Positions 7,390-24,048 are shown, counted from the stretch's first letter. The stretch: DNA of 45,513 bases from Oscillospiraceae bacterium (GCA_031271665.1 JAISVI010000007.1:1-45513), one strand, 5' to 3'. The notes: generated from the sequence alone by a model not told the origin. Translations and numbers: made by a program.

Positions 7390-8130
7390 GAATATAACGC
7401 CGCCATCCTCCGACGGGACGGGGTCTTCCGGGGGCGGGGACGTGGATTCCGGCGTGGGTTCGGGCGTCGGTTCCGGCGTGGGCGTGGGCGTTGGCGTGGG
7501 TTCGGGGGACGGCGTTGGGGAAACGGCCGGCTTTCCGTCCGGGCCGTATTCAACCCCGGCCTGCATCCGCGCGCCCTTCAGGTATTTGCCGGAAAAGACG
7601 GGATGCCCGGTTTCGGGGTTATACTCCGTCCCCTCGCCGTCAAAAAGCCCCGCTGAAAATTCGCCCTTATAGCAAACGCTGCCGCCTTCGTAAAGCGTAC
7701 CCTGCCCATGAAACAAATTGGCCTTAAACCCGCCGCTGTATCTGACGAGGCCGTCCGCGCCGTAAAGCGTCCCCGCCCCGTCATACCGGTTTTCCTGAAA
7801 GCCGCCCTCGTACAAAAGCTTTCCGTCTTCGTAAAGCCGCCCCTGTCCGGCGACGACGCCTTTGTCAATCTCGCCTTCGTATACAAGCGTTCCGTCCGGC
7901 GCAAGAAGCCTTGCCCGCCCGGTATACTCCGCAAGATAGGGCGAGTGCACCGAAAACTCCGGCACGGCTTTTTGGGAAATAATAAAGCGTATGACCGCCG
8001 GGTGTATTAAAAGCGCGTACGTGACTGCGGCGGCAAGCAGGGCGCAGGCAAGCCGCCACAGAAAGGCAAGGCTTGCAAAGCGCCGCCCCAGACGGACATA
8101 ACCCTTGATTTTACGGTGTGACGCTTTCAT
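7345..8130 (-). CDS. N-terminally TM-anchored MORN-repeat protein with a Pro/Thr-rich tail
   Basis: 261 aa. A TM segment (LAFLWRLACALLAAAVTYALLI) is followed by about six YEGxFxxxxxxGxGxL MORN-type repeats and then PTPSPEPTPTPTPTPEPTPEPTPE. The last 14 codons lie inside the palindromic element. The start overlaps the upstream gene by 20 nt. Confidence 0.85.
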   Translation of the reverse strand: MKASHRKIKGYVRLGRRFASLAFLWRLACALLAAAVTYALLIHPAVIRFIISQKAVPEFSVHSPYLAEYTGRARLLAPDGTLVYEGEIDKGVVAGQGRLYEDGKLLYEGGFQENRYDGAGTLYGADGLVRYSGGFKANLFHGQGTLYEGGSVCYKGEFSAGLFDGEGTEYNPETGHPVFSGKYLKGARMQAGVEYGPDGKPAVSPTPSPEPTPTPTPTPEPTPEPTPESTSPPPEDPVPSEDGGVIFLRACLLSVVRRSFG

Positions 8131-11326: not shown

Positions 11327-12421
11327 TTATACCCTAAGCGCGCGGATTGCGAAATCAAACCCCGCGAGGCGGTACGGCTCTAAATGAAGGCGTATCGCGC
11401 GCTTATGCTCTTCGGCAAGCGCCGCGCCGCGCACTTTCGCGGCGATGACTATAATGCGCGGTCTTCCGCCGCCGGGACGGTTTTCCGGCGCGAATACGCG
11501 CGCGTCCTCTACGCGGGTTCCCGGCGTTTCAAGCACAAGAAGGCGGATATCCTCCGCCGTGACGGCTTGGCGTCTTTCTTCCTCCATGCGCGTAAGCGTC
11601 TCTCCGGGGCTTTCGCGCCGCGCGCCGCCCTGGGCGGGTTTTTCCTGAACAAGCGTAAGAAGGCGTTCCCCCACGCGCATTTCCGTAAGCTGGCCGGAGG
11701 TGATATTGCCACCCTCCCCCCGCGTAAGAGCCATCGAAACGATGCGCACCTCACCCTTGGGCGCAAGCCCCCGGATACCGTCGCCGAAGGAGACAACCCC
11801 GCTTTCGTCGTCAAGCGTAAAATGGGTATCGGCGGAGCCGGAAAGGCGGAAGTCGTCAACCGCCGTCCACGTTTGCGCCCCCGAAAGGCCGCCACTGCCG
11901 GACACGGCGAGCGAAAAGCTTTCATGCAGTACGCTCTGGGCGCGCGTGTCAACGGTAAATGACAGTCCCGGAAAGCCGTCCGCGACCCCCAAAACAGGGC
12001 GTTCCGGCGAGTCAAACAGCCCGCCGAAAACGGTGTGCTTCTGTATCACACGGAAAGAAAGCGCTTTCCCCGGACAGGCGGGGATGTCCGCCGCCGTTTC
12101 AAAGCGTATGTCCTCGGCCATGACCGGTGTGCCGGACGGTATGCGCACCGGAGTTCCGTGGGGAAGCGTGACCTCCGCCACAGCGGGGCGCGCCCTGCGG
12201 GGCGTTATGCCAAGCAGCGGGAAGAACGCGTCCGCGCGCTCGCTTGCGGACATGTGAAAGCGCTGTGCCTCGGTAAGCCACGCCATAAGGTCGATAAGCG
12301 TAACGCCGGGGTCGTGGGTGTTGAAATCGCTCCATTCGGGAAGCAGGTTCGCCGCGTCCAACCGGGCTTGCGACACAATCTCGGGGAAGCGCTCGTCGTC
12401 CGGATTATTCTGTCTAAGCAT
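11327..12421 (-). CDS. baseplate J-like protein (short paralogue)
   Basis: 364 aa. The N-terminus (NTHDPGVTLIDLMAWLTEAQRF) and the C-terminal segment (RQAVTAEDIRLLVLETPGTRVEDARV) are typical of the baseplate J/gp47 family. Confidence 0.75.
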   Translation of the reverse strand: MLRQNNPDDERFPEIVSQARLDAANLLPEWSDFNTHDPGVTLIDLMAWLTEAQRFHMSASERADAFFPLLGITPRRARPAVAEVTLPHGTPVRIPSGTPVMAEDIRFETAADIPACPGKALSFRVIQKHTVFGGLFDSPERPVLGVADGFPGLSFTVDTRAQSVLHESFSLAVSGSGGLSGAQTWTAVDDFRLSGSADTHFTLDDESGVVSFGDGIRGLAPKGEVRIVSMALTRGEGGNITSGQLTEMRVGERLLTLVQEKPAQGGARRESPGETLTRMEEERRQAVTAEDIRLLVLETPGTRVEDARVFAPENRPGGGRPRIIVIAAKVRGAALAEEHKRAIRLHLEPYRLAGFDFAIRALRV

Positions 12422-12423
12422 GA

Positions 12424-14856
12424 CTAGGCCACCCGGAAGGCAATCTCGTGCGTCCCGTCCGCAGGAAGGGCAAAGGGTTCTCTGACGGCGCGCGCGTAAT
12501 CCGCGTAGGCGTGGTTTATCTTATAGACGGCCTTCACGCCGTAAAGCGAAGCAATACCGGGAACGGTACGCAAAACGGCGGCAATGTCCTCCGGGGACGG
12601 AAGAGTTCCGAGTTGCCAGCCGCCCTCCGGTCCGCCGCGCGCGGCGTCCAGATAAAGCGAAAGGGTTTCCAGTATCCGGCGCTTGACATTAAGGGCTTCC
12701 TCCGGCGCGGAAATTGCCGCGTGTACCGTAACATTTACGTCTACAAACCGTGCCGCCGCGACGCAAAGCCTTCCCGCGCCAAGCGGGCGGCGCGGCGCGA
12801 CGAAAGCAAGCGCGGCGCGCCCAATCGCGCCGAAATCCCCGCGTCCGCCGTGCGCGGACAAAAGCGCCAGACAGTCGCAGTCCGGGTTCTCCGCTCCGTC
12901 TTCGCCGGTACGGCAGTAAAGACGCGCCCGCAGGACAAGCGGCGAGGACTCAAGCGCCAGTTCCTCGCAGTCACGCGCGCTTACGGCGCGTCCGCCGTGG
13001 CAAAGCCCGGCGGTCAGACGCCGGATTACGCCTTGCTCGTCCTCCTCCGAGACTCCCCCGGCGCAAGCCGTGGGGTTAAACACGGCGGAAATCCCCGCCA
13101 CGGGCGCAAGCAGGGAACTGAACGCCCCGGAGGGCAGATTGGACGCAACCCCCGGCGTCCTTGCCGTCGCGGAGACGGCGTTTTCAAAAATCCCCAGAAG
13201 GCGCGGCCCGGACTGCGTGAAGCGCCCGAAAGTATTGTCCGCGTCGCATACGCGCATCCAATACCCCTCGCGCCCGAAAAGCCGGGTTTTCGCGCACGGC
13301 AAAGGCGCCTGATAGGTAAGGATGCCCGTTTGGGAAAGGTTTTTCGTGCCGTCATGTACGTCAAGCGCCGCCCACCCGCCCCCGACGGCATACTCCCAGC
13401 GCGCTTTGAACGCCTGTCCCGGCGTAAGATGAAATAGAATGCCGCCCTGTGAAAACGGCATGGCGAACGCGAAGTATACCGCCCCGGGGGTATCCAATGC
13501 CCCGCGTAAAGGCACGGGAGTCCCGTCCAAAGCGACCGCGCGGCTTTCCATATGCTCGTAAACCTCGGCTTCAGGCACGGGGAACTCCCCGGCGTACCTT
13601 ATCCGCAGACCGGATATCACCGGTGTGCGGTAATGCCCGCGCATACGGAAAAGGTTGTTTACGCCAAGTATGCGCGCCCGTATAAACGGCAGCTCATGCG
13701 CCCCCCAGACGGCGAAAGCCATATCCTCCGGGCATGTAAAGCTTACGGCGCGCCTTCTTGACGGGCCGCTTGAAAACATGCCCGGCTCTCCGGCGGGCAG
13801 GACGGCCCAGCCTGTCCCGTTGAAATACTCCCAGACAGTTTCGGAAATGTCAATCACATACTCGGCGGGCGGCGCAAGTTCCTCGGCCTTCATAAGCTTT
13901 TTCATGCGTATCTGCACGTCGGGGTATCCCTCTATCGGAAAATCCTCGAAGTCAAGGTGAAAAGAAACCTCTATACGCGCGCCCGGCTTGCCGAACGCGT
14001 CGGCGCAGGCGATATAAAAGCACAGCCCCGGTATAAAGCGCCTGTCAAACGGGTACACCCGGTCGCCGGACTGCTGGGTGTCCCCGGCGTAAACCGCGTC
14101 CGGGAACAGCGCGTTCTCGCTTGGCATCGCCGTAACGGCGCGAAGCGCGGCGCTTTCGCGCTGTCCGCCGGGAAGCGTTATGCGCAGCGCGCGTCCGCCC
14201 CGATTTTGCGCAAGCAGAATATCGCCGCCGTCCGGGCGCGCGTCAATTTGCGTCCACTCTTCCCCGTCCCCGGACTCCCAAAGTACGCCGCCCCCGCAAA
14301 GATCCGCAACGTCCGCGTTATCCAGTCTTATGTTAAGCCGCAGGGCGGCGTTCTGCGAAACGCAGAAGGCGTACGGGTGATAAAGCGTCCAGACATGGGG
14401 CGCGGGCTGTGCCAGACCGAACAGGGTGATGTTTTCCCGTCCGTTATAAAGCGTTAAAATATCACGCTGCGGAAACGCGCAATAGATTGCCCCGATAACG
14501 GCGGGGGACACAATAAGTTCCGCGTCCGTTTCCATAACGGCCTGCGGGTCTTCCGGACACGCCGCGCCCGTTCCGGCGGGGACGCAAATAATCCCGCCGT
14601 CCTCGGCCGCAGACTGAAACGCAAGGTATCCGCGCGCCGGAAGGGGCTTTCTCGGCACTGAACCGATAACGTCAAGCAGCGCGCGGCGGCAGTTGTCGGG
14701 CAGACGCCCGAAGCGTTCAAGCGTGCCGGAAAACATCCCGCACCAAACGGACGCAAGCACCGCCCCGGCGTCCGGCGAGGCGGGGTTAAAGCGCCATTCC
14801 GGGACATAATACGGCGCGCGTCCGGCAATCTCCTCAAGAAGCCTCTCTTTTTCCAT
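12424..14856 (-). CDS. large baseplate assembly protein (baseplate J/gp6-like, Afp11-type)
   Basis: 810 aa. It has the N-terminal PEWRFNPASPDAGAVL pattern and the C-terminal GGRAVSARDCEELALESSPLVLRARL baseplate-J motif. There is a 0-nt gap to the gp25-like gene. Confidence 0.85.
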   Translation of the reverse strand: MEKERLLEEIAGRAPYYVPEWRFNPASPDAGAVLASVWCGMFSGTLERFGRLPDNCRRALLDVIGSVPRKPLPARGYLAFQSAAEDGGIICVPAGTGAACPEDPQAVMETDAELIVSPAVIGAIYCAFPQRDILTLYNGRENITLFGLAQPAPHVWTLYHPYAFCVSQNAALRLNIRLDNADVADLCGGGVLWESGDGEEWTQIDARPDGGDILLAQNRGGRALRITLPGGQRESAALRAVTAMPSENALFPDAVYAGDTQQSGDRVYPFDRRFIPGLCFYIACADAFGKPGARIEVSFHLDFEDFPIEGYPDVQIRMKKLMKAEELAPPAEYVIDISETVWEYFNGTGWAVLPAGEPGMFSSGPSRRRAVSFTCPEDMAFAVWGAHELPFIRARILGVNNLFRMRGHYRTPVISGLRIRYAGEFPVPEAEVYEHMESRAVALDGTPVPLRGALDTPGAVYFAFAMPFSQGGILFHLTPGQAFKARWEYAVGGGWAALDVHDGTKNLSQTGILTYQAPLPCAKTRLFGREGYWMRVCDADNTFGRFTQSGPRLLGIFENAVSATARTPGVASNLPSGAFSSLLAPVAGISAVFNPTACAGGVSEEDEQGVIRRLTAGLCHGGRAVSARDCEELALESSPLVLRARLYCRTGEDGAENPDCDCLALLSAHGGRGDFGAIGRAALAFVAPRRPLGAGRLCVAAARFVDVNVTVHAAISAPEEALNVKRRILETLSLYLDAARGGPEGGWQLGTLPSPEDIAAVLRTVPGIASLYGVKAVYKINHAYADYARAVREPFALPADGTHEIAFRVA

Positions 14857-15261
14857 TTAGACTCCCTCCGTCAGAAAGAACGGGTATACCAAATTAAACG
14901 GGCTGTTTGTGCTGCGCACCGTGTACTTGATGTCCAGACGGAAACCGCCGCTTGAGCCTTGCGGGAAATCCGCCTCGGCCTCGATGTTTGTGATGCGCGG
15001 TTCCCACAGGCCAAGCGCCTCTTCCGCCGCCTCGCGTATCCTGGCGCGCGTGCCGTAACTGTCGGCGGCGAAGACATACTCGTGAAGCCTTGAGCCGAAT
15101 TCCGGGCGCATAAGCCGCTCGCCAAGCCGCGTGGACAGGATTATGTGTATGGCCTGCTTGATGTCCTGTTCGTAAAGCGCAAGCCTTACGCGTCCGCTTG
15201 CTTTGTCCGTTCCCACCGGGAAGGCAAGACCGCCGCCCAAAAAGTCCTTGGTGTAATCCAT
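14857..15261 (-). CDS. GPW/gp25-family baseplate wedge protein (Afp9-like)
   Basis: 134 aa. DIKQAIHIILSTRLGERLMRPEFGSRLHEYVF is the classic gp25 motif. Confidence 0.9.
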   Translation of the reverse strand: MDYTKDFLGGGLAFPVGTDKASGRVRLALYEQDIKQAIHIILSTRLGERLMRPEFGSRLHEYVFAADSYGTRARIREAAEEALGLWEPRITNIEAEADFPQGSSGGFRLDIKYTVRSTNSPFNLVYPFFLTEGV

Positions 15262-15269: not shown

Positions 15270-15448
15270 CCCCTTAGTTCAGAGCTTGCTGAATAAGCGC
15301 ACTGTTACGCTTCACAACTTTTTTCGACCGGCAAATTCGGAATTTTTCGCTTTGGTTTCTGCGAAACAAAGCTCCAAAATTCTGAATTTGACAACTCGCG
15401 CCTTCGGTGCTTCGGGTCGAAAAAAAGTTGTTCAGCAGCCCCTTAGTT
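15270..15448. mobile_element. about 159-bp palindromic (MITE/ERIC-like) element flanked by a direct repeat of up to 10 bp (CCCCTTAGTT)
   Basis: CCCCTTAGTT occurs at 15270-15279 and 15439-15448. The interior folds as a long imperfect hairpin: CACAACTTTTTTCGACC/GGTCGAAAAAAAGTTGT, AAATTCGGAATTTT/AAAATTCTGAATTT, and a central GCTTTGGTTTC/GAAACAAAGC stem. Removing it restores a 12-nt gap between the spike and gp25 genes. Confidence 0.65.
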
Positions 15449-16162
15449 TATCTTCGTCATAGAACCCTTCAGCGTCAGTATGCCGCTGCTTTCCACTTTG
15501 ACGTTCGCGCCGGTAAGCTCGGCGCTTTGCGCGTTAAGCTTCGCCGTACTGCCGTCAAGCTTTACCTGCTTGCCTTTAAGGGTAAGGGCGTTTTCCGCGT
15601 CAAGCGTCACGGACTGCCCTTTAAGCGTTATCTTGCCGGTGATTGTAATTGTTTCCGCCTTGATGTCAAGCTTATCCCCGGACTCCAGTTTGACGGACGT
15701 GCCGTTTTCGTCCAGTTCAAGCTTCTGCTTCCCGTCATTCGTTTGTATTTTTATTTTTTTTGCCTTCTCGTCAATCTCGATGACATGCCCGGATTCGCTC
15801 TTAACGGTTATCTTCCCGTCGTCGCCGTCTTTAAGCGTGATGCTATGCTTTCCCTTGGTGACAAACTTCCGTATAAGGTTGTCTTTGTCGGCGGTTTCCG
15901 CCGGGACGGTGTTCTTCGTGTTCCAAAGACTGCCAAGGACGACCGCGCAGTGCGCGTCCCCGCCGATAAACCCCACTATAACCTGCGCGCCCTTTTCCGG
16001 CAGAAGGTACACGCCGTAATCCTTCCCCGCATACGGCGCGGCCACGCAAAGCCATTCGGTCGCGCGTCCCTCGGCGTCAAAGGAGGGGAAGGACACCCTC
16101 ACCATGCCGGGGTGCTTGGCGTCGTAGTTCTCGGTAACGGTTCCAAGTATAAGTCCGTTCAC
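15443..16162 (-). CDS. gpV/VgrG-like central spike (Afp8-like)
   Basis: 239 aa. The N-terminus (GTVTENYDAKHPGMVRVSFPS...EWLCVAAPYAGKDYGVYLLPEKGAQVIVGFIGGD) is a gpV/gp5 OB-fold signature. The C-terminus consists of repetitive beta-helix-like K/T/L-rich repeats. Confidence 0.9.
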   Translation of the reverse strand: MNGLILGTVTENYDAKHPGMVRVSFPSFDAEGRATEWLCVAAPYAGKDYGVYLLPEKGAQVIVGFIGGDAHCAVVLGSLWNTKNTVPAETADKDNLIRKFVTKGKHSITLKDGDDGKITVKSESGHVIEIDEKAKKIKIQTNDGKQKLELDENGTSVKLESGDKLDIKAETITITGKITLKGQSVTLDAENALTLKGKQVKLDGSTAKLNAQSAELTGANVKVESSGILTLKGSMTKIN

Positions 16163-16169: not shown

Positions 16170-17201
16170 CTAACCTCCTATGCCGATTTCCGTGACGAAG
16201 CCGTCTTCGCTGTTCATGCGGTGATGCACGGAAACGACGGTAAATCTGTCCCCGGTAAGCGCGGCGAAGGGGCATTTGTTAATCTTGATTTTCTGCCCAA
16301 GCTTCACTTCCGGTATGCCCCGGCAGTATACGCGGCCGGCGACCGCTTCGCGCTTGGCGGCGTCCGCAGCCGCCGCCACCACGGCCTTGCCCGCGTCGCC
16401 AAGCAAGTGCGGCGGCAACGGTATGATGCGCGTGACCGCAAGAAGATTTTTCTGCGTTCCCTTCGCGTCCTTTTGCGAGGAGAATTCTTCCATCTTGGCG
16501 TGGTCGTAACCCATGCCGGTAATTTTCAAATCCACATACCTTGCGCCAAGTTCCAGTTCCGTGTCGGGCCAGTCAAACTCCACGCAGACCGTGTCCTTCG
16601 CGCCGCCCACATACGCCTTGCCGCAGTCGATGTAAAAGTAATGCCCGCGCAAATCGGCAGCGTCCTGAATAAAGTCCAAATCGCCGCCCGCCTGCGTCAC
16701 GCAGACCTCTTTCTCAAGCGCCGCGAGGGTGACTTCCTTGGCGCTTACCAACGGGCTGTACAGATCCAGAAGGCTTTCGGCGATATTCTGAACGGTTTTC
16801 CCCTTCGCGGCGGTATAGCGCGCGCCAAGGCGCATAAGCGCGCGGGCGTCCAGGCATACGGCGCTTAGGCAGATGTTTTCGCCGTCAAAGCGCATGGCAA
16901 GCTCGTCGACATACCCCGAGAACACTTCGCTTACGCTGCTTCCGTAGCCAAGGGAAAGCGAAATACGGCTGCCCGGTTTAAGCTTGTCAAGCGCGGTTTG
17001 CGAGAACTGGCCGGAACCGTGTTCATATACGTCGTGAACCGTGAAGGCGCACGCCCCTGCGGTTTTGCCCATGCCGTTATCCACCGTGATGCCGTCAATC
17101 ATAAACTCGCTTCTTGAAAGCTCGCTGCCCGCGCCGAAGACCTTGTACGCGGGGACGGTGAAGCCGCCGTATGCCGTCCTTAAATCGGAATACTTGCTCA
17201 T
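16170..17201 (-). CDS. late control gene D-like baseplate hub protein (Afp7-like)
   Basis: 343 aa. Its size, its position immediately upstream of the spike gene and its pattern (F.V.V.G......F....V.......A..C.F.V) fit the gpD family. It overlaps the LysM gene by 4 nt. Confidence 0.8.
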   Translation of the reverse strand: MSKYSDLRTAYGGFTVPAYKVFGAGSELSRSEFMIDGITVDNGMGKTAGACAFTVHDVYEHGSGQFSQTALDKLKPGSRISLSLGYGSSVSEVFSGYVDELAMRFDGENICLSAVCLDARALMRLGARYTAAKGKTVQNIAESLLDLYSPLVSAKEVTLAALEKEVCVTQAGGDLDFIQDAADLRGHYFYIDCGKAYVGGAKDTVCVEFDWPDTELELGARYVDLKITGMGYDHAKMEEFSSQKDAKGTQKNLLAVTRIIPLPPHLLGDAGKAVVAAAADAAKREAVAGRVYCRGIPEVKLGQKIKINKCPFAALTGDRFTVVSVHHRMNSEDGFVTEIGIGG

Positions 17202-17836
17202 CGCTTTTCAATGGGCGGGATTTTCAGCACCATGCCCGCCTGTACGCGGCGCGGGTTGCGTATGCCGTTGGCTGCGGCGATACGCCGCCACTCCCCGCAG
17301 TCGTTATAGGCGTCAAAAGCCACAAGGTAAAGCGGCGTATCCGGCCCAAGCACCCGCCGTTTGGTGCGGTCGGGCGATTCAAGCCCCGGCTTCGCGCCCT
17401 TCTTGCCCTGAATCGTTATGCTGACCGTGGCGCGAACCGGCTTCCCCTCGGCGGTGAACATGGTGAAATTGACGTTCAAGGCGGTTATGTGGCCGCTGTA
17501 TTTGGTGGTTCCCCACTCGAAGGTACAGCCGGGGGGCTTATGCAAATCCGGCTTTATCCGCACAAGCTCGCGAAGCGCCTTGACCTTGCCGGAGATGTCT
17601 TTGGCGTCCTTTTCGCTTGCGGAGTTTGCCGGAAAGCCGTCAAGCGTCATTTTAAGGGAAAGGGTGCTGCTTCCCTCGCCGATGAATTCCGTCTTTCCCT
17701 GCGCGTCGGCAACGCCCTTGGCGTCCGCGTACTTGGGGGCGTAATCCACCGTGAAATCCGCGGGGTTAAAATCAAAGTTTATGCGGCTTGTCTCTTTCTC
17801 CTTGTCGTCCAAAACGACAATGCACGCTTTCTCCAT
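17198..17836 (-). CDS. CIS tube-initiator protein with C-terminal LysM domain (Afp5/Pvc5-type)
   Basis: 212 aa. The N-terminal FDFNPADFTV... tube-like fold is followed by a C-terminal LysM (YLVAFDAYNDCGEWRRIAAANGIRNPRRVQAGMVLKIP). Confidence 0.85.
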   Translation of the reverse strand: MEKACIVVLDDKEKETSRINFDFNPADFTVDYAPKYADAKGVADAQGKTEFIGEGSSTLSLKMTLDGFPANSASEKDAKDISGKVKALRELVRIKPDLHKPPGCTFEWGTTKYSGHITALNVNFTMFTAEGKPVRATVSITIQGKKGAKPGLESPDRTKRRVLGPDTPLYLVAFDAYNDCGEWRRIAAANGIRNPRRVQAGMVLKIPPIEKR

Positions 17837-17839
17837 GCC

Positions 17840-18292
17840 CTACCCCCGCCGTCTTGTTTCGTATTCCGCTTCCCGCCGGATTTGCGCGCGCGTTTCGCGC
17901 ATGTTTTTGCGGGTCAGTCCGCGCGCCTCGGCGCGCAGCTCTTCGCCCATTTTTACAAGGCGGCCGTCGGTATAGCGCCGCTCGTCTTTAAGTCTGCGCT
18001 CGGCGGCCGCGAAAAAAAGCTCGGTCTGGCGCTTTGCGCGGCGCGAGGAGTCAAGCCAGCGCGTTTCGGCGGTATTTATCCGCCTGTGCCAGTCGTCGGA
18101 AAGGCGCTTTATGTCGCGCCCGACAGTCTGAAGGATGCCCCGCTCTAAACTCTGCCGCGCGAAGGCCGCCCTCTGCGCGGTCTTTTTGGCGTCCGCCCGG
18201 TGGGAAAGCGTGAACAGGTTATTAAACCCCGGCTCGCGCGCGTAGCGTTCGGACACGGTATGAAGCAAATCTGTCACTTTGACGGCCTGCAA
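17840..18292 (-). CDS. short Arg/Glu/Ala-rich helical protein; only tape-measure (Afp14-like) candidate
   Basis: 150 aa with a predicted all-helical composition and no recognised domain. It lies between the tube paralogue and the tube-initiator, and overlaps the upstream gene by 19 nt. The function is inferred from position only. Confidence 0.5.
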   Translation of the reverse strand: MQAVKVTDLLHTVSERYAREPGFNNLFTLSHRADAKKTAQRAAFARQSLERGILQTVGRDIKRLSDDWHRRINTAETRWLDSSRRAKRQTELFFAAAERRLKDERRYTDGRLVKMGEELRAEARGLTRKNMRETRAQIRREAEYETRRRG

Positions 18293-18699
18293 AGCGCAAT
18301 CCCGCCGTGAAATACCGAAAAGGTTTCAATCAGCACCGAGGAATCCTGCGCGTCCAGTTTGGACAGCTCGATTGACTCCACAACGGGTGACGCAACGCTG
18401 TAGGAAACGCTTGCCTCTCCGTTTTCGTTAAGGATGTCGATTTGCATTTCGTCGGCGATCTTTTCGCCGGGGCGGAAATTGCTTAAAGCACCCGCCGGGG
18501 ACACGCCACGCTCCATCACAAGCTTTCCGGGTTCTTTGACGGGTATGGCAAGCATAACGGGGGCGTCGTTCTGCCCGCCGACCTGAAGCGGCTCGAAAGA
18601 AGCCGACAGCTTTATTCCGCTTATCGAGCGGAAACCAAGGGCGCTTCCCCGTATCATAACGGCAAAGCGGCAGGAGGCAAGAAGGCCTTCTCTTCTCAT
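18274..18699 (-). CDS. second tail-tube paralogue (T4 gp19 family)
   Basis: 141 aa. FAVMIRGSALGFRSISGIKLS...LVMERGV pattern parallels the main tube protein. Confidence 0.8.
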   Translation of the reverse strand: MRREGLLASCRFAVMIRGSALGFRSISGIKLSASFEPLQVGGQNDAPVMLAIPVKEPGKLVMERGVSPAGALSNFRPGEKIADEMQIDILNENGEASVSYSVASPVVESIELSKLDAQDSSVLIETFSVFHGGIALCRPSK

Positions 18700-18717: not shown

Positions 18718-18745
18718 CCCTCTAAAACCACGGGTTTTTAGAGGG
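18718..18745 (-). promoter_or_regulatory. intra-operon RNA hairpin overlapping the stop of the small ORF
   Basis: CCCTCTAAAACC-ACG-GGTTTTTAGAGGG forms a 12-bp stem with one bulged T. It lies between the abundant sheath/tube genes and the baseplate genes. No U-tract follows it on the sense strand. Confidence 0.3.
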
Positions 18746-18884
18746 CCTCGAACAGGTTGTCCGGCGCGCCGGACTGCTCTTTGTTAATGGCGGAAACGCG
18801 GGCGCACCACTCATGGCGCTCGCCGTGCGCAAGGGTCATCAGTTCCTCACGCGGCCAGTGCAGGTAATACGCAAGAAAGGCCAT
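18738..18884 (-). CDS. small conserved CIS-associated ORF (DUF6760-like motif), ATG-initiated minimum version; possibly expressed as a -1 frameshift extension of the chaperone
   Basis: This ORF falls below the length cut-off of the ORF track. The -1 frame reads ..VITYPASRLYEEMAFLAYYLHWPREELMTLAHGERHEWCARVSAINKEQSGAPDNLFEAL*. The YEE.AF.AY..HW....L..L.H.ER..W motif is one I recall from about 60-aa proteins in CIS loci. No canonical start codon occurs before the ATG at 18884. Confidence 0.5.
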   Translation of the reverse strand: MAFLAYYLHWPREELMTLAHGERHEWCARVSAINKEQSGAPDNLFEAL

Positions 18885-18895
18885 TTCCTCGTAAA

Positions 18896-18941
18896 GGCGG
18901 GACGCGGGATATGTGATTACCGCCCCGCCCGCAGAAAATTT
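18896..18941 (-). promoter_or_regulatory. candidate -1 ribosomal frameshift signal (slippery A_AAT_TTT plus downstream stem-loop)
   Basis: The heptamer AAATTTT (18935-18941) lies in the X_XXY_YYZ register of the chaperone frame (GTA AAT TTT). After a 5-nt spacer there is a 9-bp GC stem GGCGGGGCG/CGTCCCGCC (18896-18929). Confidence 0.35.
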
Positions 18942-19288
18942 ACCGGAATCGACACCTTTTCCCCGCAGACCGGGCAGTGTTCCTCATAGCAGGGGCTTTC
19001 CGTCTGGTTTACGCGGTTATACAAATCCTGCAGATAAGCAAGGTCTTGGACGAAAAGCCCTTCTATAACCGCCTCTCCAAGCTGTTTCACCGTCCCAAGC
19101 GAAGTGACCACGCGGGCAAGGATAAGGATTATAAGATACTCCGGGTTTTCCTTCACGCGCGGGTCGCGAAGCGGAAGGATTTCGTCCGCCGCCGTCGCGA
19201 GGCGCATTTTCCCGGCGCGGTGAAGCGTACCGTCCGAATCCGCGTAGCCGCGCGGCAGGCAAAAGTCATATTCTGTCTGAAGCATCAT
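18917..19288 (-). CDS. tail assembly chaperone-like protein (P2 gpE / Mu gp41-like) with C-terminal CxxC
   Basis: 123 aa. DGTLHRAGKMRLATAADEILPLRDPRV resembles the gpE/gp41 chaperone motif (G....v.LR.pt..De). The C-terminus has CPVCGEKVS. It overlaps the tube gene by 4 nt (ATGA). Confidence 0.65.
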   Translation of the reverse strand: MMLQTEYDFCLPRGYADSDGTLHRAGKMRLATAADEILPLRDPRVKENPEYLIILILARVVTSLGTVKQLGEAVIEGLFVQDLAYLQDLYNRVNQTESPCYEEHCPVCGEKVSIPVNFLRAGR

Positions 19289-19713
19289 TTGGTTCTGGTC
19301 ATTCCCTCGTGGGCCAGTTCAAGTTGCTCTATGGCCACCTCGCTGGCCGTGGCGTTGAACTCGGGGCCGGTGTACTTGACCGGCCACGCCTGGACAATCT
19401 GCCAGGCCGCGACTTCGTCGCCGTTCTCGTTAAGAAGCGTCACCGACACGGTTTTGCGCACGATGTCCTTTTCAAAACTGGGACTCATCCAGTCATAGGC
19501 GGCCTTGCTTGCCGTAAGACCCCATTTGAAGACAATGTTGCTGTATTTGCGCAGCCCCGGAAGCTTAATCGGCGTGGGGGGCATCATGTTGCCCTCGCGG
19601 TATTCAACCACGTCGATGCTGGCGTCAAAACCGGTGATTTCGGAAAACCCGGCTTCCGCGCCGCCAAAGTCCACCTTGTACTTAAACCTTGTAAACGGGT
19701 ATGTATTCGGCAT
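19285..19713 (-). CDS. CIS tail tube protein (Afp1-like, T4 gp19 family)
   Basis: 142 aa. FKYKVDFGGAEAGFSEITGFDASIDVVEYREGN...KLPGLRKYSNIVFKWGL is the canonical tube signature. A strong RBS (AGGAGGGGAG) precedes it. Confidence 0.95.
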   Translation of the reverse strand: MPNTYPFTRFKYKVDFGGAEAGFSEITGFDASIDVVEYREGNMMPPTPIKLPGLRKYSNIVFKWGLTASKAAYDWMSPSFEKDIVRKTVSVTLLNENGDEVAAWQIVQAWPVKYTGPEFNATASEVAIEQLELAHEGMTRTK

Positions 19714-19727: not shown

Positions 19728-21443
19728 CTATTCAGTGGCGGTTTTCTGCGTAAGGCGGAAGATGACAAATTCGGCGGGCTTGACCGGCGCGATGCCGATA
19801 ACGCAGATCAGCCGCCCGTTGTCAATGTCCCCCTGCGACATGGTAGAGTGCCCCACCTGAACGTAAAACGCCTCTGCCGAAGACGCGCCCGCAAGCGCCC
19901 CGTCGCGCCACAGGCCGGACAGGAACACCTCGATAGTGCGCTGTACGCGCGTCCAAAGCGTTTCGTCGTTCGGCTCGAACACGACCCAGTTTGTGTTTGC
20001 CTTGATACTTTCCTCGACAAAAATGAAAAGGCGGCGCACGTTTATGTATTTCCAAAGCCCGTTCGAGCTTGCGGTGCGCGCGCCCCAGACGTTTATGCCC
20101 TGGCCGGGGAACGAGCGGATAAGGTTGACGCCGCGCGGGTTAAGGATGTCCTGCTCGCCCTTGTTATACTGAACGCTTAGTCCGGCGCAGGCGCGCACAA
20201 CCTCGTTCGCGGGGGCCTTATGCACGCCGCGCGTGGCGTCGCTGCGCGCGTATATGCCGATAACCGAACCCGAGGGCGGGATATGGATGTTTTTCTGGTC
20301 AAGCGGGTCAAACACCGAAAGCCAAGGGTGGTACAGCGCGGCGTACTGGGTGTTGAAAAGCTCGCGGTGCGCAATAAGCTCGTCCGTCTTGGCAAGTTCC
20401 TTGGGCATGTCAAGCACCGCGAAGCGCGAGGCAAGGGTTTCGCAGTGCGCGACAAGGGTAAGCTGTACGTTCGCGTCGGTAATCCCCGGCACGGCCATAA
20501 TACTGCATACGGGATTGTCGATAAACGCCTGAATGCCCGTGCGCTTGCCGGGGCCGTTATCCTCGCCGATGAAGGTGCCGGCGGAAACGCTGTCGGCGGT
20601 ACCGCTTGACCCGCCCGCGAAGCCGATTGTCAGTTCCTGTGTCTCATCCCCCGCGATAAGCTTAAACGGCGGCTCCGCGCCCTCGGGTATGTCGCCAAGC
20701 GTGACGCGGACAAGTTCGGATCTGGCCATTTTCTTGACGATATGGTTCGGGATTGCGGGGTTCAGCGAAAGGTTTCCATAGTTCTCGGCCACATCGTCAT
20801 GATAGACGTCCAGATTGAACTCGCAGGTATACAAAAGCTTTTTCGGCACAATTGCGTCGTCGGCGTCGCCCTCGTCAAGCGCCTCGGCAAACTCCAGTAC
20901 ATTGTCCTGGGATTTGACCACGCGGTTATACTTCTTCTCTTCGCCGTCGGAAAGCATCACAATGTCCCCGGCGTAAAAGCCCGCGCCGCTTTTTACCGCC
21001 GCCCGCGTCGGCTCGAGCAGCTTCATAATCTGCGTTTTGGCCTTGCTTGCGGGGGTGATGACCGCCTTCAGGTCGTTGCCCCACGCGCCCGCGCTTGCGG
21101 CGGTCAGTTTAAGGGGGGATTCGTGCGCCGCTTCGGCAATTTTCGCGTCGGAGGGGATGACGCGGCTTATAAAGGCGCGGGTTCCGCCGTTGATAAAGAA
21201 ATGCTCTGCCGCATAGGCAAGATACCGGTAATCGCCGAACTCAAGCGCGCTTAAATAACCGCCGTATTTGCGTTTGTAATCCGCAATCCCCGTTACAAGC
21301 TGGGGAATGCCGCCGACAGGGCCTTTTGCCGCAAGTCCGACAAACCCCGCCGTGGAAGTCCCCACACCTTCCATCGGCACGGGGCCGCTGTCAAATTCCT
21401 CGACGTAAACGCCCGGGGACAGGTATTCGGGCATACTGCTCAT
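19728..21443 (-). CDS. CIS contractile sheath protein (Afp2-4-like)
   Basis: 571 aa. The N-terminus (MPEYLSPGVYVEEFDSGPVPMEGVGTSTAGFVG) is canonical for tail sheaths. The true start is probably the second ATG at 21434, which lies 9 nt after the GGGAGG RBS. Confidence 0.95.
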   Translation of the reverse strand: MSSMPEYLSPGVYVEEFDSGPVPMEGVGTSTAGFVGLAAKGPVGGIPQLVTGIADYKRKYGGYLSALEFGDYRYLAYAAEHFFINGGTRAFISRVIPSDAKIAEAAHESPLKLTAASAGAWGNDLKAVITPASKAKTQIMKLLEPTRAAVKSGAGFYAGDIVMLSDGEEKKYNRVVKSQDNVLEFAEALDEGDADDAIVPKKLLYTCEFNLDVYHDDVAENYGNLSLNPAIPNHIVKKMARSELVRVTLGDIPEGAEPPFKLIAGDETQELTIGFAGGSSGTADSVSAGTFIGEDNGPGKRTGIQAFIDNPVCSIMAVPGITDANVQLTLVAHCETLASRFAVLDMPKELAKTDELIAHRELFNTQYAALYHPWLSVFDPLDQKNIHIPPSGSVIGIYARSDATRGVHKAPANEVVRACAGLSVQYNKGEQDILNPRGVNLIRSFPGQGINVWGARTASSNGLWKYINVRRLFIFVEESIKANTNWVVFEPNDETLWTRVQRTIEVFLSGLWRDGALAGASSAEAFYVQVGHSTMSQGDIDNGRLICVIGIAPVKPAEFVIFRLTQKTATE

Positions 21444-21594: not shown

Positions 21595-24048
21595 ATGGCT
21601 CGCATGAGGCCTAATATGTTTTCGCCGCCGACGCAGGACGCGTTTTCCGTCGAGCGCAAGGCCGCCGTCGCGGAAATGGAGTCTGTTCCAAGACGGTGCA
21701 TTGTATACATACACGCGCCCGCCGGCTTCGGCAAGACGGCCGCGTGCGCGCAGTGGCTTTCGGGAAGAAAAACCGCGTGGTTCACTTTGGACGGGTATAC
21801 CGCGGACGCGGCGCGCTTCTGCGGCGGGGTTTTGGACGCGCTTTCGGCGGGAGTCCCGGCGGGCGCGGTTACTTCAGATGTTTTTGCGGAAGCCTTGCGG
21901 GGCGTAACCGTCTGGCCCTCGGCGCTTGTAATCGACGACTTCCACCTTTGTACGGACACGCGGGCGCAGAAAGCGCTTCTCCTTCTCCGCGCGCGTATGC
22001 CGGGGGAAACGTCGCTTGCGGTTATAAGCCGCGCCGCGCCGCCGGAAGCTCTGCGCGCGCAACTTGTCAAGGGGGCGCTGCGCCCCGTGACCGGCCTTGC
22101 GTTCAGCAGTGAGGAGATTTCGGCGCTTGCGCGGAAAATGGGCAGTCCCGTTACACAATACTTTTCCGGGTTTCTTTTTAAGCAGACCGGGGGCTGCGCG
22201 GCCGCGCTCGCGCAGATACTGCATTCCGGCGACGGCGGCTATTGCGGCGTTCCGGGGCGCGAAAGCCTTAACGCGTATATGCGGGGTCTTGTCTTTGACG
22301 CGGAGTATTTCGGCGCGCTTAAAAAATGCGCCGTCTGCGACACATTGAATCCTTCCCTCTGCGCCGCGATTACCGGAACGCACGGCATCTGGGCGCATAT
22401 CTGCACCCTTGCCGGGAAGACGGGGCTTATTGCCGGGCTTCCCGGCGGGGAGTGGCGTTTCCATACGCTTCTGCGCGACTATCTTGAATACGAGCTTCTG
22501 CGCGACGGCACGATAGACAAACCCGCGCTTTTTAAGGCGGCGGCGGCGTGGCATATGGAAAACGGGGACTTGCTGCGCGCCCTTGATATGGCCGCGAAAA
22601 GCGGCGACCTTGCTTTTGCGGACGGGCTTTCCGATATTCCGCAAAACAAAAAAGCCCCTGTAAGCGCGGCGCGGTACGCGGCGCTTATAGAGGCAAGTTT
22701 CCTTTCAATACCCATGGGCGTCACGCGCGATTACCCGCGTTTGGCCAATCACTGCTTCGCGGCGGCGCTGCTGGCGCGCCCGCTGCGGGAAGCCCTTCGC
22801 TGGGCGGACATTATGGAAGGGCATATGTCCGGCGGGACTTTGCGCGGGGAGGACAAAACCCGCGCCGCGTTCTTTCTTTCGGCGGATACCCGTCATTCAA
22901 GCTGGCATGTGCCGGGGCAGATTGGGCGGCTTGCCGCAAGCCCTCTCGCCGCGAACCTGCCGACGCTTACCTGCAATCTGCCGTTCTTCCACAAGGCACA
23001 GCGGGACTTTTCGGATATCGCCCCAAAACTTCGCGAGTATACCGCCGCGCTGAAACAGCGGATTGGGGAAGAACCGCCCCCGCCGCTTGGTGCGCTTGTC
23101 TCGCTTATAGAGGCGGGCGTACGCTTCGAGCGCGGAGAACTTGCCGAGGCCGAAAACGCCGCGCGTGATCTCTGCGCGCTGTCCGAACACCTATGCCCCG
23201 AAATTTTCTTCTGCGTCCACGCGCTGTATTCCGAGATAAGGCGCGTACAGGGGAAGAAGGCCGAGCCGGAGAGAATCGGTGAAATGATCGCGCGCAAGGA
23301 CGCCCTTTTCCTGCGTGACAATTACGCCGCGTTCCTTACGGAAACGCGGCTTTACGTCGCTGACCGGGCAAGCGCGGAACTTTGGCTTGGCCGCGCGGGG
23401 CCGGAGGGGCCGGTACGGCTTCACAACCTATACGTATACTTTGTAAAGGCGCGCGCGCTGTTGGTTTTAAACAGGCTTTACGAGGCGGAAACACTTTTTG
23501 AAGAGCTGGCCGCCTTCGCGCGCGAGTACCGCAGGAACGCCGACTTTATCTCTGCGCACTGCCTTTTGGCTGTTTGCAGATGGCGCATGAAAAGGCCGTC
23601 GGAGGCCGTCGAGGCCGCCGTCCCCGCGCTTTTAAAAGCCGCCGAGCTTGGGCTTGTCATGCCCGTCGCCCGGGAGGGCGGCGGTATGCTGCCAGTTCTG
23701 CGTAAGGTTATTAACCGTCTTAAATACGGCTATGACCCGCAGCGGCTTGACAGGGCGTTTCTGGGGGTGCTGTACCGCCATACGGCAAGCGTTGCCTGCG
23801 GCGTACCCGGACTATTCGCCGGGCATACGGAAAGACCGGTAAGCCTTTCTCCAAGACAGAGCGAAGTGCTTGGGTGTCTTGAAAACAACCTTAGCTACCG
23901 GGAAATCGCGCGCCGCCTTGGCATATCTCCCGCGACGGTGGACGACCATATACGCCGCCTGCACGAAAAGCTTAACGCCACTAGCACCCGGGAAGCGCTT
24001 AACCGCGCGCGGGAACTTGGTATCCGGACGGGGGTGAGAAAAATATAA
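21595..24048 (+). CDS. MalT/LAL-type STAND ATPase regulator with C-terminal LuxR HTH
   Basis: 817 aa. The N-terminal P-loop (IHAPAGFGKTAACAQWL) is followed by a long helical/TPR-like middle region and a C-terminal LuxR-type HTH (LSPRQSEVLGCLENNLSYREIARRLGISPATVDDHIRRLHEKL). An alternative start exists at 21604. Confidence 0.9.
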   Translation: MARMRPNMFSPPTQDAFSVERKAAVAEMESVPRRCIVYIHAPAGFGKTAACAQWLSGRKTAWFTLDGYTADAARFCGGVLDALSAGVPAGAVTSDVFAEALRGVTVWPSALVIDDFHLCTDTRAQKALLLLRARMPGETSLAVISRAAPPEALRAQLVKGALRPVTGLAFSSEEISALARKMGSPVTQYFSGFLFKQTGGCAAALAQILHSGDGGYCGVPGRESLNAYMRGLVFDAEYFGALKKCAVCDTLNPSLCAAITGTHGIWAHICTLAGKTGLIAGLPGGEWRFHTLLRDYLEYELLRDGTIDKPALFKAAAAWHMENGDLLRALDMAAKSGDLAFADGLSDIPQNKKAPVSAARYAALIEASFLSIPMGVTRDYPRLANHCFAAALLARPLREALRWADIMEGHMSGGTLRGEDKTRAAFFLSADTRHSSWHVPGQIGRLAASPLAANLPTLTCNLPFFHKAQRDFSDIAPKLREYTAALKQRIGEEPPPPLGALVSLIEAGVRFERGELAEAENAARDLCALSEHLCPEIFFCVHALYSEIRRVQGKKAEPERIGEMIARKDALFLRDNYAAFLTETRLYVADRASAELWLGRAGPEGPVRLHNLYVYFVKARALLVLNRLYEAETLFEELAAFAREYRRNADFISAHCLLAVCRWRMKRPSEAVEAAVPALLKAAELGLVMPVAREGGGMLPVLRKVINRLKYGYDPQRLDRAFLGVLYRHTASVACGVPGLFAGHTERPVSLSPRQSEVLGCLENNLSYREIARRLGISPATVDDHIRRLHEKLNATSTREALNRARELGIRTGVRKI

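What the first reader, a model, noticed from the sequence alone, without database searches (positions are those of the whole stretch)
18738..18941. Candidate -1 programmed frameshift fusing the tail chaperone to a conserved small ORF that lacks its own start codon
On the minus strand the 123-aa chaperone ORF ends ...CCG GTA AAT TTT CTG CGG GCG GGG CGG TAA. The heptamer A_AAT_TTT (18935-18941) fits the X_XXY_YYZ slippery pattern in the correct register. Five nucleotides downstream lies a 9-bp GC-rich stem (GGCGGGGCG/CGTCCCGCC, 18896-18929) with a 16-nt loop.

The -1 frame is open from just upstream of the heptamer to the TAA at 18738-18740. It encodes FSAGGAVITYPASRLYEEMAFLAYYLHWPREELMTLAHGERHEWCARVSAINKEQSGAPDNLFEAL. 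This carries the YEE.AF.AY..HW...L..L.H.ER..W motif that I recall from small CIS-linked proteins (DUF6760-like).

That frame has no ATG, GTG or TTG before the internal ATG at 18884. Starting there would remove the YPxxRLYEE part of the motif.

The site lies after the tube gene and before the tape-measure candidate. This is the position where lambda G/GT and P2 E/E+E' use a conserved -1 frameshift. I am not aware of this being documented for eCIS loci.
Basis: partly seen in the sequence, partly recalled or inferred. Interest (0 to 1): 0.7.

Follow-up and report, generated by a model that had tools for sequence, protein, structure and literature searches.

The report
Frameshift-fused assembly chaperone in injection-system locus
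A phage-tail-like injection system gene cluster very probably makes a short and a long form of a small assembly protein by a programmed one-base backward ribosome slip, as phages do. Comparison with about 170 related loci shows the signal is conserved across bacteria and archaea, yet it is annotated nowhere.

Summary

On the minus strand a 123-aa ORF follows the tube gene of a genuine contractile injection system (CIS) locus. It ends 5 codons after an in-register A_AAT_TTT heptamer. A DUF6760 ORF (Pfam E=1e-12) lies in the -1 frame and has no ATG, GTG or TTG ahead of its conserved motif.

- **Frame:** in 86/86 related Clostridia-type loci, 73/73 soil metagenome loci and 8 plasmid loci, DUF6760 is in the -1 frame.
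- **Slippery site:** 82/86 Clostridia-type loci carry A_AAT_TTT or T_TTT_TTR in register. The Val/Ile codon before AAT always ends in A (55/55, against a 22% background).
- **Hairpin:** a hairpin with compensatory changes starts 6 nt downstream in both heptamer classes.
- **Start codon:** 54/82 loci have no start codon between the heptamer and the domain.
- **Other phyla:** they carry G_GGG_GAR (the GAA form is the actinophage chaperone slip site) or G_GGA_AAY at the same spot.
- **Natural fusions:** one eCIS lineage encodes the fusion as a single ORF.

RefSeq annotates two genes, sometimes with ATA or truncated starts. I found no paper describing this. It is a new member of the lambda G/GT and P2 E/E+E' kind. 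Function as an assembly chaperone is inferred.

The parts
19285..19713 (-). Tube gene (142 aa), directly upstream. Its TGA overlaps the ATG of the next ORF.
   Evidence: Pfam Phage_T4_gp19, E=4e-42; ORF list.
18917..19288 (-). 0-frame ORF giving the short product (123 aa). It is a tail/hub-assembly-protein-like domain with a C-terminal CPxC zinc-ribbon-like hairpin.
   Evidence: Translation. AlphaFold2 mean pLDDT 90.8. BFVD matches to 'Baseplate hub assembly protein, T4-like', E 3e-8 to 1e-6. phrog_508 tail assembly chaperone, E=0.005. RefSeq names homologues 'phage tail assembly protein'.
18935..18941 (-). Slippery heptamer A_AAT_TTT. Asn (AAT) sits in the P site and Phe (TTT) in the A site.
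   Evidence: Sequence. Conserved in 55 related loci, with the preceding codon always GTA or ATA. H_HH.U_UU.Y motifs, which include A_AAU_UUU, are among the most efficient in E. coli (PMC4066793).
18896..18929 (-). Downstream stem-loop, the putative frameshift stimulator. The family-wide register is a 6-nt spacer, then GCGGGG (18923-18928) paired with TCCCGC (18904-18909) across a 13-nt loop. The window clade can also form the longer GGCGGGGCG/CGTCCCGCC stem.
   Evidence: Fold. Across 45 distinct orthologous sequences 87% of cells pair, 3 of 6 pairs show compensatory changes, and 0/500 shuffles reach the covariation score.
18917..18919 (-). 0-frame stop TAA, five codons after the heptamer, inside the hairpin loop.
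18738..18935 (-). -1-frame segment translated after the slip. It holds a 10-residue linker (SAGGAVITYP...), a three-helix DUF6760 domain and the stop TAA 18738-18740. Joined to 18936-19288 it gives a 183-aa long product with the junction ...SIPVNF|SAGGAV....
   Evidence: AlphaFold2 of the fusion has pLDDT 86.9, a low-confidence linker at 119-128 and helices at 129-173.
18882..18884 (-). Internal ATG used by gene callers (48-aa product P0002). It is probably not the physiological start.
   Evidence: Only 31/86 orthologues have ATG here; most of the others have non-start codons such as GCN or ACN. Starting here removes the conserved YPxxRLYEE segment.
18274..18699 (-). Second tube-like gene (141 aa), the next gene downstream. 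Context only.
   Evidence: Pfam Phage_T4_gp19, E=7e-11.

Best explanation
**Mechanism.** Ribosomes translating the 123-aa ORF reach A_AAU_UUU with tRNA-Asn in the P site and tRNA-Phe in the A site. A GC-rich hairpin starting about 6 nt downstream resists unwinding. In a fraction of ribosomes both tRNAs slip back one base, to AAA and UUU.

**Products.** Ribosomes that do not slip stop five codons later and make the 123-aa short form. Ribosomes that slip read TCT GCG GGC... and add a flexible linker plus the three-helix DUF6760 domain. This gives a 183-aa long form with the same N-terminal domain.

**What is shown (comparatively).**
- the slip site;
- the hairpin;
- the fixed frame relation;
- the lack of a start codon;
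- the existence of natural in-frame fusions.

**What is inferred.** By analogy with lambda G/GT and P2 E/E+E', the two forms would act in a fixed ratio as assembly chaperones. The shared domain would hold a hub or tape-measure-like component. DUF6760 would recruit another tail part, perhaps tube subunits. Neither form would remain in the finished particle. The frameshift efficiency is unknown.
For: **In the window**
- Heptamer, register, short 0-frame tail and an open start-less -1 ORF that matches DUF6760.
- The locus is a real CIS: sheath, two tube genes, CIS_tube/LysM, gpD-like, gpV-like, gp25, Baseplate_J, CIS12, CIS13, Pvc16_N cap, AAA ATPase and DUF4280.

**In 86 related loci** (27 clusters at 80% chaperone identity)
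- DUF6760 is always in the -1 frame.
- 55 loci have A_AAT_TTT and 27 have T_TTT_TTN in register. The background rate is 0.056% per codon.
- The codon before AAT is GTA (42 loci) or ATA (13 loci), against 22-23% usage. AAT and TTT are invariant. The neighbouring Pro codon uses all four third bases. Treating the 16 clusters as independent gives P of about 3e-11.
- Hairpins with a 6-nt spacer occur in both heptamer classes, with compensatory pairs.
- 31 loci have no start codon at all, 23 have one only upstream of the heptamer, and 28 have one between the heptamer and the domain, at varying positions.
- Two loci with a 57-codon linker keep the heptamer and an open, conserved -1 frame.

**In other phyla**
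- Soil high-GC loci are 73/73 in the -1 frame with CTG GGG GAA.
- Nostoc, Rhizobium and Streptomyces have G_GGG_GAA. Burkholderia and Ralstonia have G_GGG_GAG. Rhodococcus has G_GGG_GGA. Haloarchaea have G_GGA_AAY.
- GGGGGAA is the slip motif of about a thousand annotated actinophage frameshift cases in the SEA-PHAGES data (PMC10885494).

**Fusions and structure**
- In-frame fusions P0059, P0159 and P0160 (80-88% identical) sit in an eCIS locus and align to both halves of the predicted product.
- The fold of the short form matches T4-like hub assembly proteins.
Against: - There is no proteomic, ribosome-profiling or reporter evidence, so the long product has never been seen.
- 28/82 Clostridia-type loci have GTG, ATG or TTG between the heptamer and the domain.
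- Most high-GC, proteobacterial and haloarchaeal loci have a GTGA or ATGA stop-start overlap. Ordinary translational coupling could therefore also produce free DUF6760 there.
- Stop-start overlaps of the ATGA and TAATG types also give a '-1' frame relation, so frame constancy alone does not discriminate.
- The window hairpin is not exceptional by energy alone (z = -1.8).
- Part of the nucleotide conservation reflects dual coding.
- The chaperone role is weakly anchored. There is no Pfam or NCBIfam hit. The profile search of PDB sequences found nothing, and the fold search of PDB gave only a weak match to the XkdN-type chaperone YqbN (TM 0.47).
- No tape measure is identified next door.
Confidence: 0.82

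Rival explanations
1. There are two ordinary genes. DUF6760 is made as a free protein of about 60 aa by termination-reinitiation (translational coupling) at the chaperone stop. In this window it would use a non-canonical start such as ATC 18914-18916, as RefSeq implies with its ATA start in Nostoc.
For: - RefSeq annotates two CDSs everywhere.
- ATGA or GTGA overlaps occur in Burkholderia, Rhizobium, haloarchaea and most high-GC loci.
- 28/82 Clostridia-type loci have a start codon near the stop.
Against: - The start is not conserved in presence, type or position, and 54/82 loci have none after the heptamer.
- The model does not explain the synonymous-site conservation of the heptamer, the hairpin at 6-nt spacing with covariation, or the replacement of one slippery motif by another at the same site across phyla.
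- It also does not explain the natural in-frame fusions.
- It may coexist with frameshifting in some lineages.
Confidence: 0.1
2. DUF6760 starts at the internal ATG 18882-18884, giving the 48-aa protein that gene callers predict (P0002).
For: - ATG is present, with GAGGAA just upstream.
- Gene callers chose it here and in P0008 and P0009.
Against: - Only 31/86 orthologues have ATG at this codon; most of the others have GCN, ACN or other non-start codons.
- It removes the conserved YPxxRLYEE segment that Pfam positions 7-17 cover.
- The GAGGAA encodes the conserved EE and lies only 1-2 nt from the ATG.
Confidence: 0.04
3. It is an artefact or decay: an assembly indel or a pseudogenised start codon, or the shift arises through transcriptional slippage rather than ribosomal slippage.
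For: The window is a single unverified assembly. T6-T7 runs in the T_TTT_TTN class could in principle allow polymerase slippage.
Against: - The same arrangement appears in 166 independent assemblies from many phyla.
- The -1 ORF is under clear purifying selection at 62-80% amino-acid identity.
- The A3T4 run in this window is too short for efficient transcriptional slippage (established knowledge).
Confidence: 0.03

Closest known systems
Phage lambda gpG/gpGT and the conserved tail-assembly-chaperone frameshift of long-tailed phages (Xu, Hendrix & Duda 2004; own knowledge, cited in PMC3711429)
   Same: - Two overlapping ORFs lie just after the tube (major tail) gene.
- A -1 slip at an X_XXY_YYZ heptamer occurs a few codons before the 0-frame stop.
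- The second ORF has no start of its own.
- The result is a short form and a C-terminally extended form.
   Different: - There is no detectable sequence similarity to G or T.
- The host system is a chromosomal CIS, not a virus, and tblastn finds no homologue in 50,697 phage records.
- The extension is a small three-helix DUF6760 domain.
- A conserved hairpin stimulator is present.
- The next gene is a second tube-like gene, not a recognisable tape measure.
Phage P2 gpE/gpE+E' (and Mu gp41/gp42, R-type pyocins) in contractile tails
   Same: - The gene order is sheath, tube, then the frameshifted pair.
- The T_TTT_TTG heptamer of P2 (own knowledge: Christie et al. 2002) is exactly the motif used by 27 related Clostridial loci in place of A_AAT_TTT.
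- JGI names one homologue 'phage FluMu protein gp41'.
   Different: - The window protein has no Pfam Phage_TAC family hit.
- Its fold matches T4 gp26-like proteins rather than any solved E-type chaperone.
Actinobacteriophage tail assembly chaperone frameshift on GGGGGAA (PRFect / SEA-PHAGES data, PMC10885494)
   Same: High-GC, cyanobacterial, alphaproteobacterial and methanogen relatives of this locus carry xxG GGG GAA in register at the homologous position.
   Different: - This window uses A_AAT_TTT.
- In the GGGGGAA loci a GTGA or ATGA overlap often coexists, so the evidence there is less clean.
T4 gp26-type 'baseplate hub assembly protein'
   Same: It gives the best structural matches to the 123-aa domain (Foldseek E 3e-8 to 1e-6, probability 1.0, TM about 0.6 on the query). 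Per its database name it is an assembly factor for the hub and tube base.
   Different: - The phage proteins are about 250-270 aa and match only through one domain.
- They do not share DUF6760.
- I know of no frameshift for them.
B. subtilis PBSX/skin XkdN/YqbN tail assembly chaperone (PDB 3klu)
   Same: It is a small protein encoded after the tube gene of a contractile phage-like particle, and it is the only relevant PDB fold match.
   Different: The match is weak (E=1.4, TM 0.47, rmsd 5.5 A), so it is not evidence of homology.

Membership tests
Tail assembly chaperone pair with programmed -1 frameshift (G/GT, E/E+E' type) | Two overlapping ORFs immediately downstream of the tube (major tail) gene | tested here: met
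   Tube gene 19285-19713, ORF 18917-19288, -1 ORF 18738-18935+. The order is the same in all related loci.
Tail assembly chaperone pair with programmed -1 frameshift (G/GT, E/E+E' type) | The pair lies immediately upstream of the tape measure gene | tested here: inconclusive
   The next genes are a second gp19-like tube gene and a 150-aa ORF with no Pfam, NCBIfam or PHROG match. The ORF at that position varies from 143 to more than 500 aa among relatives. That fits a length-determining protein but is not shown.
Tail assembly chaperone pair with programmed -1 frameshift (G/GT, E/E+E' type) | Slippery X_XXY_YYZ heptamer in register within the overlap, conserved among relatives | tested here: met
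   A_AAT_TTT at 18935-18941. 82/86 relatives carry A_AAT_TTT or T_TTT_TTN, with synonymous-site conservation. Other phyla carry G_GGG_GAR, G_GGG_GGA or G_GGA_AAY.
Tail assembly chaperone pair with programmed -1 frameshift (G/GT, E/E+E' type) | Downstream ORF in the -1 frame without its own initiation signal | tested here: met
   There is no ATG, GTG or TTG in the window. The frame is -1 in 167/167 loci. No start lies after the heptamer in 54/82 loci. Not universal: 28/82 do have one.
Tail assembly chaperone pair with programmed -1 frameshift (G/GT, E/E+E' type) | Both short and long proteins are produced, and both are needed for tail assembly | not testable with these tools
   This needs western blot or mass spectrometry, and genetics.
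Tail assembly chaperone pair with programmed -1 frameshift (G/GT, E/E+E' type) | Homology to a described chaperone family | tested here: inconclusive
   No Pfam or NCBIfam hit. phrog_508 'tail assembly chaperone' E=0.005. Profile search of PDB sequences found nothing. Fold match to YqbN is TM 0.47. Strong fold match to T4-like hub assembly proteins. RefSeq and JGI names are 'phage tail assembly protein' and 'FluMu gp41'.
DUF6760 (Pfam PF20546) | Score above the Pfam gathering threshold | tested here: met
   48.3 bits against 27, E=1.1e-12, profile positions 7-49 of 89.
Contractile injection system (eCIS/CIS) locus, not a prophage | Sheath, tube, baseplate (gp25, J-like, CIS12), spike, Pvc16-type cap and AAA+ ATPase are present. 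No capsid or terminase genes. | tested here: met
   No capsid or terminase family appears among the ORFs scanned. tblastn of the fusion finds nothing in 50,697 phage records. Not every ORF of the 45-kb window was scanned.

The most novel reading that the evidence does not exclude
The -1 frameshift is an ancestral, near-universal core feature of a large CIS lineage spanning Firmicutes, Actinobacteria, Proteobacteria, Cyanobacteria, methanogens and haloarchaea. The slippery motif has been swapped to suit each host: A_AAU_UUU, U_UUU_UUR, G_GGG_GAR, G_GGA_AAY. The long chaperone-DUF6760 protein would then be an essential assembly factor missing from every published gene map of these systems, including models such as the Streptomyces CIS. 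It might be part of the length-setting machinery in systems said to lack a typical tape measure (PMC10066040).
Probability: 0.5. Interest if true: 0.72.

Novelty: new member of a known kind. Interest (0 to 1): 0.62.

Why it matters
**A missing protein.** CIS loci are being mined and engineered as protein-delivery devices. Their assembly factors are poorly known, and several lineages are said to lack a typical tape measure (PMC10066040). A conserved recoding signal means one protein of the system, the 183-aa long form, is absent from all annotations.

**An explanation for odd annotations.** It gives DUF6760 a context as the C-terminal module of a frameshifted chaperone. It also explains annotation oddities:
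- ATA start codons;
- truncated 47-48-aa ORFs;
- spurious long overlaps.

**Evolution.** The phage G/GT logic appears to be retained in non-viral machines of both bacteria and archaea, using unrelated protein families.

**Testability.** The claim can be tested in tractable organisms, because Streptomyces and Nostoc plasmids carry the same arrangement.

Tried and rejected
- **Family and sequence-profile searches on the 123-aa ORF.** Pfam and NCBIfam gave nothing. A profile search of PDB sequences gave nothing.
- **RNA families.** Rfam found nothing at the site.
- **In-frame DUF6760 in long homologues.** I checked ten 172-214-aa homologues (P0032 and others) and found none.
- **Garbled fusions.** P0024, P0040, P0130 and P0137 look like fusions, but their middles read as out-of-frame sequence. 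I treated them as assembly or gene-call artefacts and did not use them.
- **Broad alignment for the genome scan.** I used A2 instead.
- **Fold search with the fused model.** It added no match for the DUF6760 domain, so that domain's partner remains unknown.
- **Literature.** Searches for DUF6760, for CIS with frameshift, and for CIS with tail assembly protein or chaperone found nothing relevant. The Streptomyces CIS papers do not mention it.
- **Frame constancy as proof.** I rejected it as sufficient, because ATGA and TAATG overlaps give the same frame relation.
- **S. coelicolor.** I did not establish whether its own cluster carries the pair.

Full report
**1. The observation**

- **0-frame ORF.** ORF 18917-19288 encodes 123 aa ending ...SIPVNFLRAGR*.
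- **Heptamer.** A_AAT_TTT lies at 18935-18941 with AAT and TTT as 0-frame codons.
- **0-frame stop.** TAA lies five codons further on.
- **-1 frame.** It is open from 64 nt upstream of that stop to TAA 18738-18740. It has no ATG, GTG or TTG before ATG 18882-18884.
- **Family.** The -1 product is a DUF6760 protein (PF20546, 48.3 bits against a cut-off of 27).
- **Stem.** The described 9-bp stem exists. Folding gives a 10-bp version at -21.9 kcal/mol, which alone is only z = -1.8.

**2. Context**

The genes on this strand form a genuine contractile injection system:

| Coordinates | Gene or family |
|---|---|
| 19728-21443 | sheath |
| 19285-19713 | tube |
| 18917-19288 | the 123-aa ORF |
| 18738-18935 | DUF6760 (-1 frame) |
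| 18274-18699 | second tube-like gene |
| 17840-18292 | 150-aa unknown |
| 17198-17836 | CIS_tube/LysM |
| 16170-17201 | gpD-like |
| 15443-16162 | gpV-like spike |
| 14857-15261 | gp25 |
| 12424-14856, 11327-12421 | Baseplate_J-like |
| 10205-11314 | CIS12-like |
| 8959-10242 | CIS13-like |
| 6640-7179 | Pvc16 cap |
| 5597-5983 | DUF4280 |
| 933-2882 | AAA+ ATPase |

A MalT/LuxR-type regulator is transcribed divergently. No capsid or terminase genes appeared among the ORFs scanned.

**3. Close relatives**

Nine close DUF6760 proteins were found.
- Some are called from GTG or ATG at the stop overlap.
- Some are called from spurious upstream ATGs in the -1 frame, and so keep 'KFSAGGAVITYP'.
- Some, like the window, are truncated to 47-48 aa.

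Their DNA all carries (G/A)TA AAT TTT, five codons, then a stop.

**4. Systematic comparison**

A genome scan with a chaperone alignment returned 80 loci. Most are Oscillospiraceae, Lachnospiraceae and other Clostridia. The set also includes Paenibacillus, Cohnella, a Bacteroidales MAG, Methanosarcina and Methanoperedens.

- **Frame.** With the earlier loci and the window, DUF6760 lay downstream in 86 of 87 loci, always in the -1 frame.
- **Heptamers.** 55 loci have A_AAT_TTT and 27 have T_TTT_TT(A/G/T), all in register and inside the open -1 frame. Four have neither.
- **Background.** In-register heptamers of any kind occur at 0.6% of codons in long ORFs of these loci. These two types occur at 0.056%.
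- **Synonymous sites.** The codon before AAT is GTA (42 loci) or ATA (13 loci), although GTA and ATA make up only 22-23% of Val and Ile codons. AAT (53% usage) and TTT (58% usage) are invariant. The Pro codon just upstream uses all four third bases.
- **Independence.** Counting only the 16 clusters at 80% identity gives P of about 3e-11 for the third-position A alone.

**5. Stimulator**

*A_AAT_TTT class.* A 6-bp stem starts 6 nt after the heptamer and has a 13-nt loop containing the stop codon.
- The stem is GCCGGN/NCCGGC in most loci and GCGGGG/YCCCGC in the window clade.
- Over 45 distinct sequences 87% of cells pair.
- Three of six pairs show changes on both sides, for example C-G to G-C at the third pair.
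- No shuffle of 500 reaches the covariation score, and slid registers pair at only 23-49%.

*T_TTT_TTN class.* A different 10-bp hairpin, also 6 nt downstream, includes the TAG stop.
- 86% of cells pair.
- Four pairs show compensatory changes.

Two different heptamers, each followed at canonical spacing by its own covarying hairpin, are hard to explain other than as frameshift cassettes.

**6. Start codons**

Of the 82 loci with a heptamer:

| Category | Loci |
|---|---|
| No ATG, GTG or TTG anywhere in the open -1 frame before the conserved motif | 31 |
| A start only upstream of the heptamer, inside the chaperone body | 23 |
| A start between heptamer and motif (mostly GTG/TTG, at positions 0, -3 or -6) | 28 |

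The window's internal ATG is ATG in only 31/86 loci.

Three loci have a linker of about 47 extra codons.
- Two of them (L067, L072) keep T_TTT_TTG and an open -1 frame through the insertion, with conserved amino acids.
- The third (L052) has only the T_TTT tetramer.

The one locus without a downstream DUF6760 (L077) also lacks the T6 run.

**7. Other phyla**

A metagenome scan seeded with high-GC homologues gave 80 soil loci.
- 73/73 scorable loci are in the -1 frame.
- They share an almost invariant CGC CTG GGG GAA TCG TGA CGT AC. A few have G_GGG_GGA or G_GGG_GGG.

tblastn of the fused product found no phage record among 50,697. It found 46 plasmid records, always as two pieces in different frames.

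| Organism | Slip motif in register |
|---|---|
| Nostoc, Rhizobium, Streptomyces | G_GGG_GAA |
| Burkholderia, Ralstonia | G_GGG_GAG |
| Rhodococcus | G_GGG_GGA |
| Halogeometricum | G_GGA_AAT |
| Haloferax | G_GGA_AAC |

- GGGGGAA is reported as the slip motif of about a thousand annotated frameshift cases in the SEA-PHAGES actinophage data, re-pairing through G:U (PMC10885494).
- H_HH.U_UU.Y motifs, which include A_AAU_UUU, are among the most efficient in E. coli (PMC4066793).
- In these other phyla a GTGA or ATGA overlap often coexists. A 14-15-bp hairpin covers the GTG in the high-GC loci. Coupling is therefore a real alternative or addition there.

**8. Natural fusions**

The exhaustive representative search with the conceptual 183-aa product found 1248 relatives.
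- Several are clean single-ORF proteins carrying the chaperone N-domain, a short linker and DUF6760: P0059, P0061 and P0031.
- P0059 has two relatives at 88% and 80% identity.
- Their genes sit in an eCIS locus between tube genes and Pvc16/AAA/eCIS_core.
- They align with both halves of the predicted frameshift product. They omit only the zinc-ribbon hairpin that carries the slip site.

**9. What the proteins are**

- **Short form.** It folds confidently (pLDDT 90.8). Its best structural relatives are phage 'baseplate hub assembly protein, T4-like' entries (E 3e-8 to 1e-6). The only relevant PDB match is the XkdN-type chaperone YqbN, and it is weak.
- **Weaker labels.** PHROG 508 (tail assembly chaperone) matches at E=0.005. 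RefSeq and JGI call homologues 'phage tail assembly protein' and 'FluMu gp41'.
- **Long form.** The model has a low-confidence linker (residues 119-128) and a three-helix DUF6760 domain. That domain has no structural match among viral proteins.
- **Role.** The assembly-chaperone role is an inference from position, fold and analogy. It is consistent with the cryoEM model of the Streptomyces CIS particle, which is built from Cis1a/1b/2/7/8/9/11/12/16 only (PMC12237407). I did not verify that this cluster carries the pair.

**10. Annotation and literature**

RefSeq annotates two separate CDSs.
- The Nostoc DUF6760 CDS is given an ATA start.
- The Rhodococcus one is truncated to an internal TTG.

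No paper in the searchable library mentions DUF6760 or links CIS with frameshifting. Casu et al. note only 'additional proteins of unknown function' and no typical tape measure.

**11. Verdict**

- The most likely mechanism is a programmed -1 ribosomal frameshift giving 123-aa and 183-aa forms (confidence about 0.8).
- It is the CIS counterpart of lambda G/GT and P2 E/E+E', built from different protein families.
- It is a new member of a known kind, apparently undocumented, widely conserved and easy to test.

Noticed in passing
window 2894-5590 (-): An 898-aa ORF whose only Pfam hit is a HAMP domain. It lies just upstream of the AAA+ ATPase, where Afp14-type tape measures sit in Afp/PVC loci (own knowledge). 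It is a possible length-determining protein, and a better tape-measure candidate than the 150-aa ORF next to the frameshift site.
   Followed up: no
window 17840-18292 (-) and the equivalent ORFs in L001-L006, L169, L170: The ORF between the second tube gene and the CIS_tube/LysM gene has no family match. Its length varies widely among relatives: 143-212 aa in Clostridia, 321 aa in Burkholderia, 524 aa in Nostoc. It occupies the position of P2 gene T.
   Followed up: partly
L087-L166 (soil metagenome loci), e.g. L088 around the chaperone stop: High-GC relatives have a very strong 14-15-bp hairpin (GTGACGTACGCGRCC / GGTCGCGTACGTCGC). It starts 2-3 nt after GGGGGAA and buries the GTG of the GTGA overlap. 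It could stimulate frameshifting or gate coupled initiation.
   Followed up: partly
L070, L081, L083 (Methanosarcina, Methanoperedens, Methanosarcinales); L171, L175 (haloarchaea): Archaeal CIS loci have the same chaperone/DUF6760 arrangement. The methanogens have G_GGG_GAA TAA and no start codon. The haloarchaea have G_GGA_AAY plus an ATGA overlap.
   Followed up: partly
P0010, P0014, P0017, P0055: Some homologues are tandem duplications of the chaperone domain (about 230-250 aa). Their 0-frame tails (…GESLATLSTASTRR) run on over the region that encodes the start of DUF6760 in the -1 frame.
   Followed up: no
P0103, P0153: Two database proteins begin with the DUF6760 N-terminal motif (…YPxxxLYEEMAFIAHHFHWS…) and continue directly into the middle of the chaperone domain. 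They may be chimeric assemblies, or rearranged or tandem loci.
   Followed up: no
L077 3300-3522: This is the one related locus with no DUF6760 downstream. Its chaperone ends GTG GAT TTT ATG AAA CGG TGA, so it has lost the T6 slippery run as well. It may be a decayed locus.
   Followed up: partly
window 21595-24048 (+): A MalT-like TPR/LuxR (GerE) regulator is transcribed divergently from the sheath gene. The same neighbour is present in relatives L001 and L006, so it is a likely dedicated regulator of the CIS operon.
   Followed up: no
window 18953-18957 (-): A Shine-Dalgarno-like AGGTG lies 11 nt upstream of the heptamer, similar to the upstream stimulator of the dnaX frameshift. It falls in the conserved CPxCGE codons, and I did not test its conservation as an RNA signal.
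   Followed up: no
window 7345-8130 (-) and 5597-5983 (-): A MORN-repeat protein and a DUF4280 (PAAR-like) protein are encoded inside the CIS operon. They may be tip or effector-associated components.
   Followed up: no
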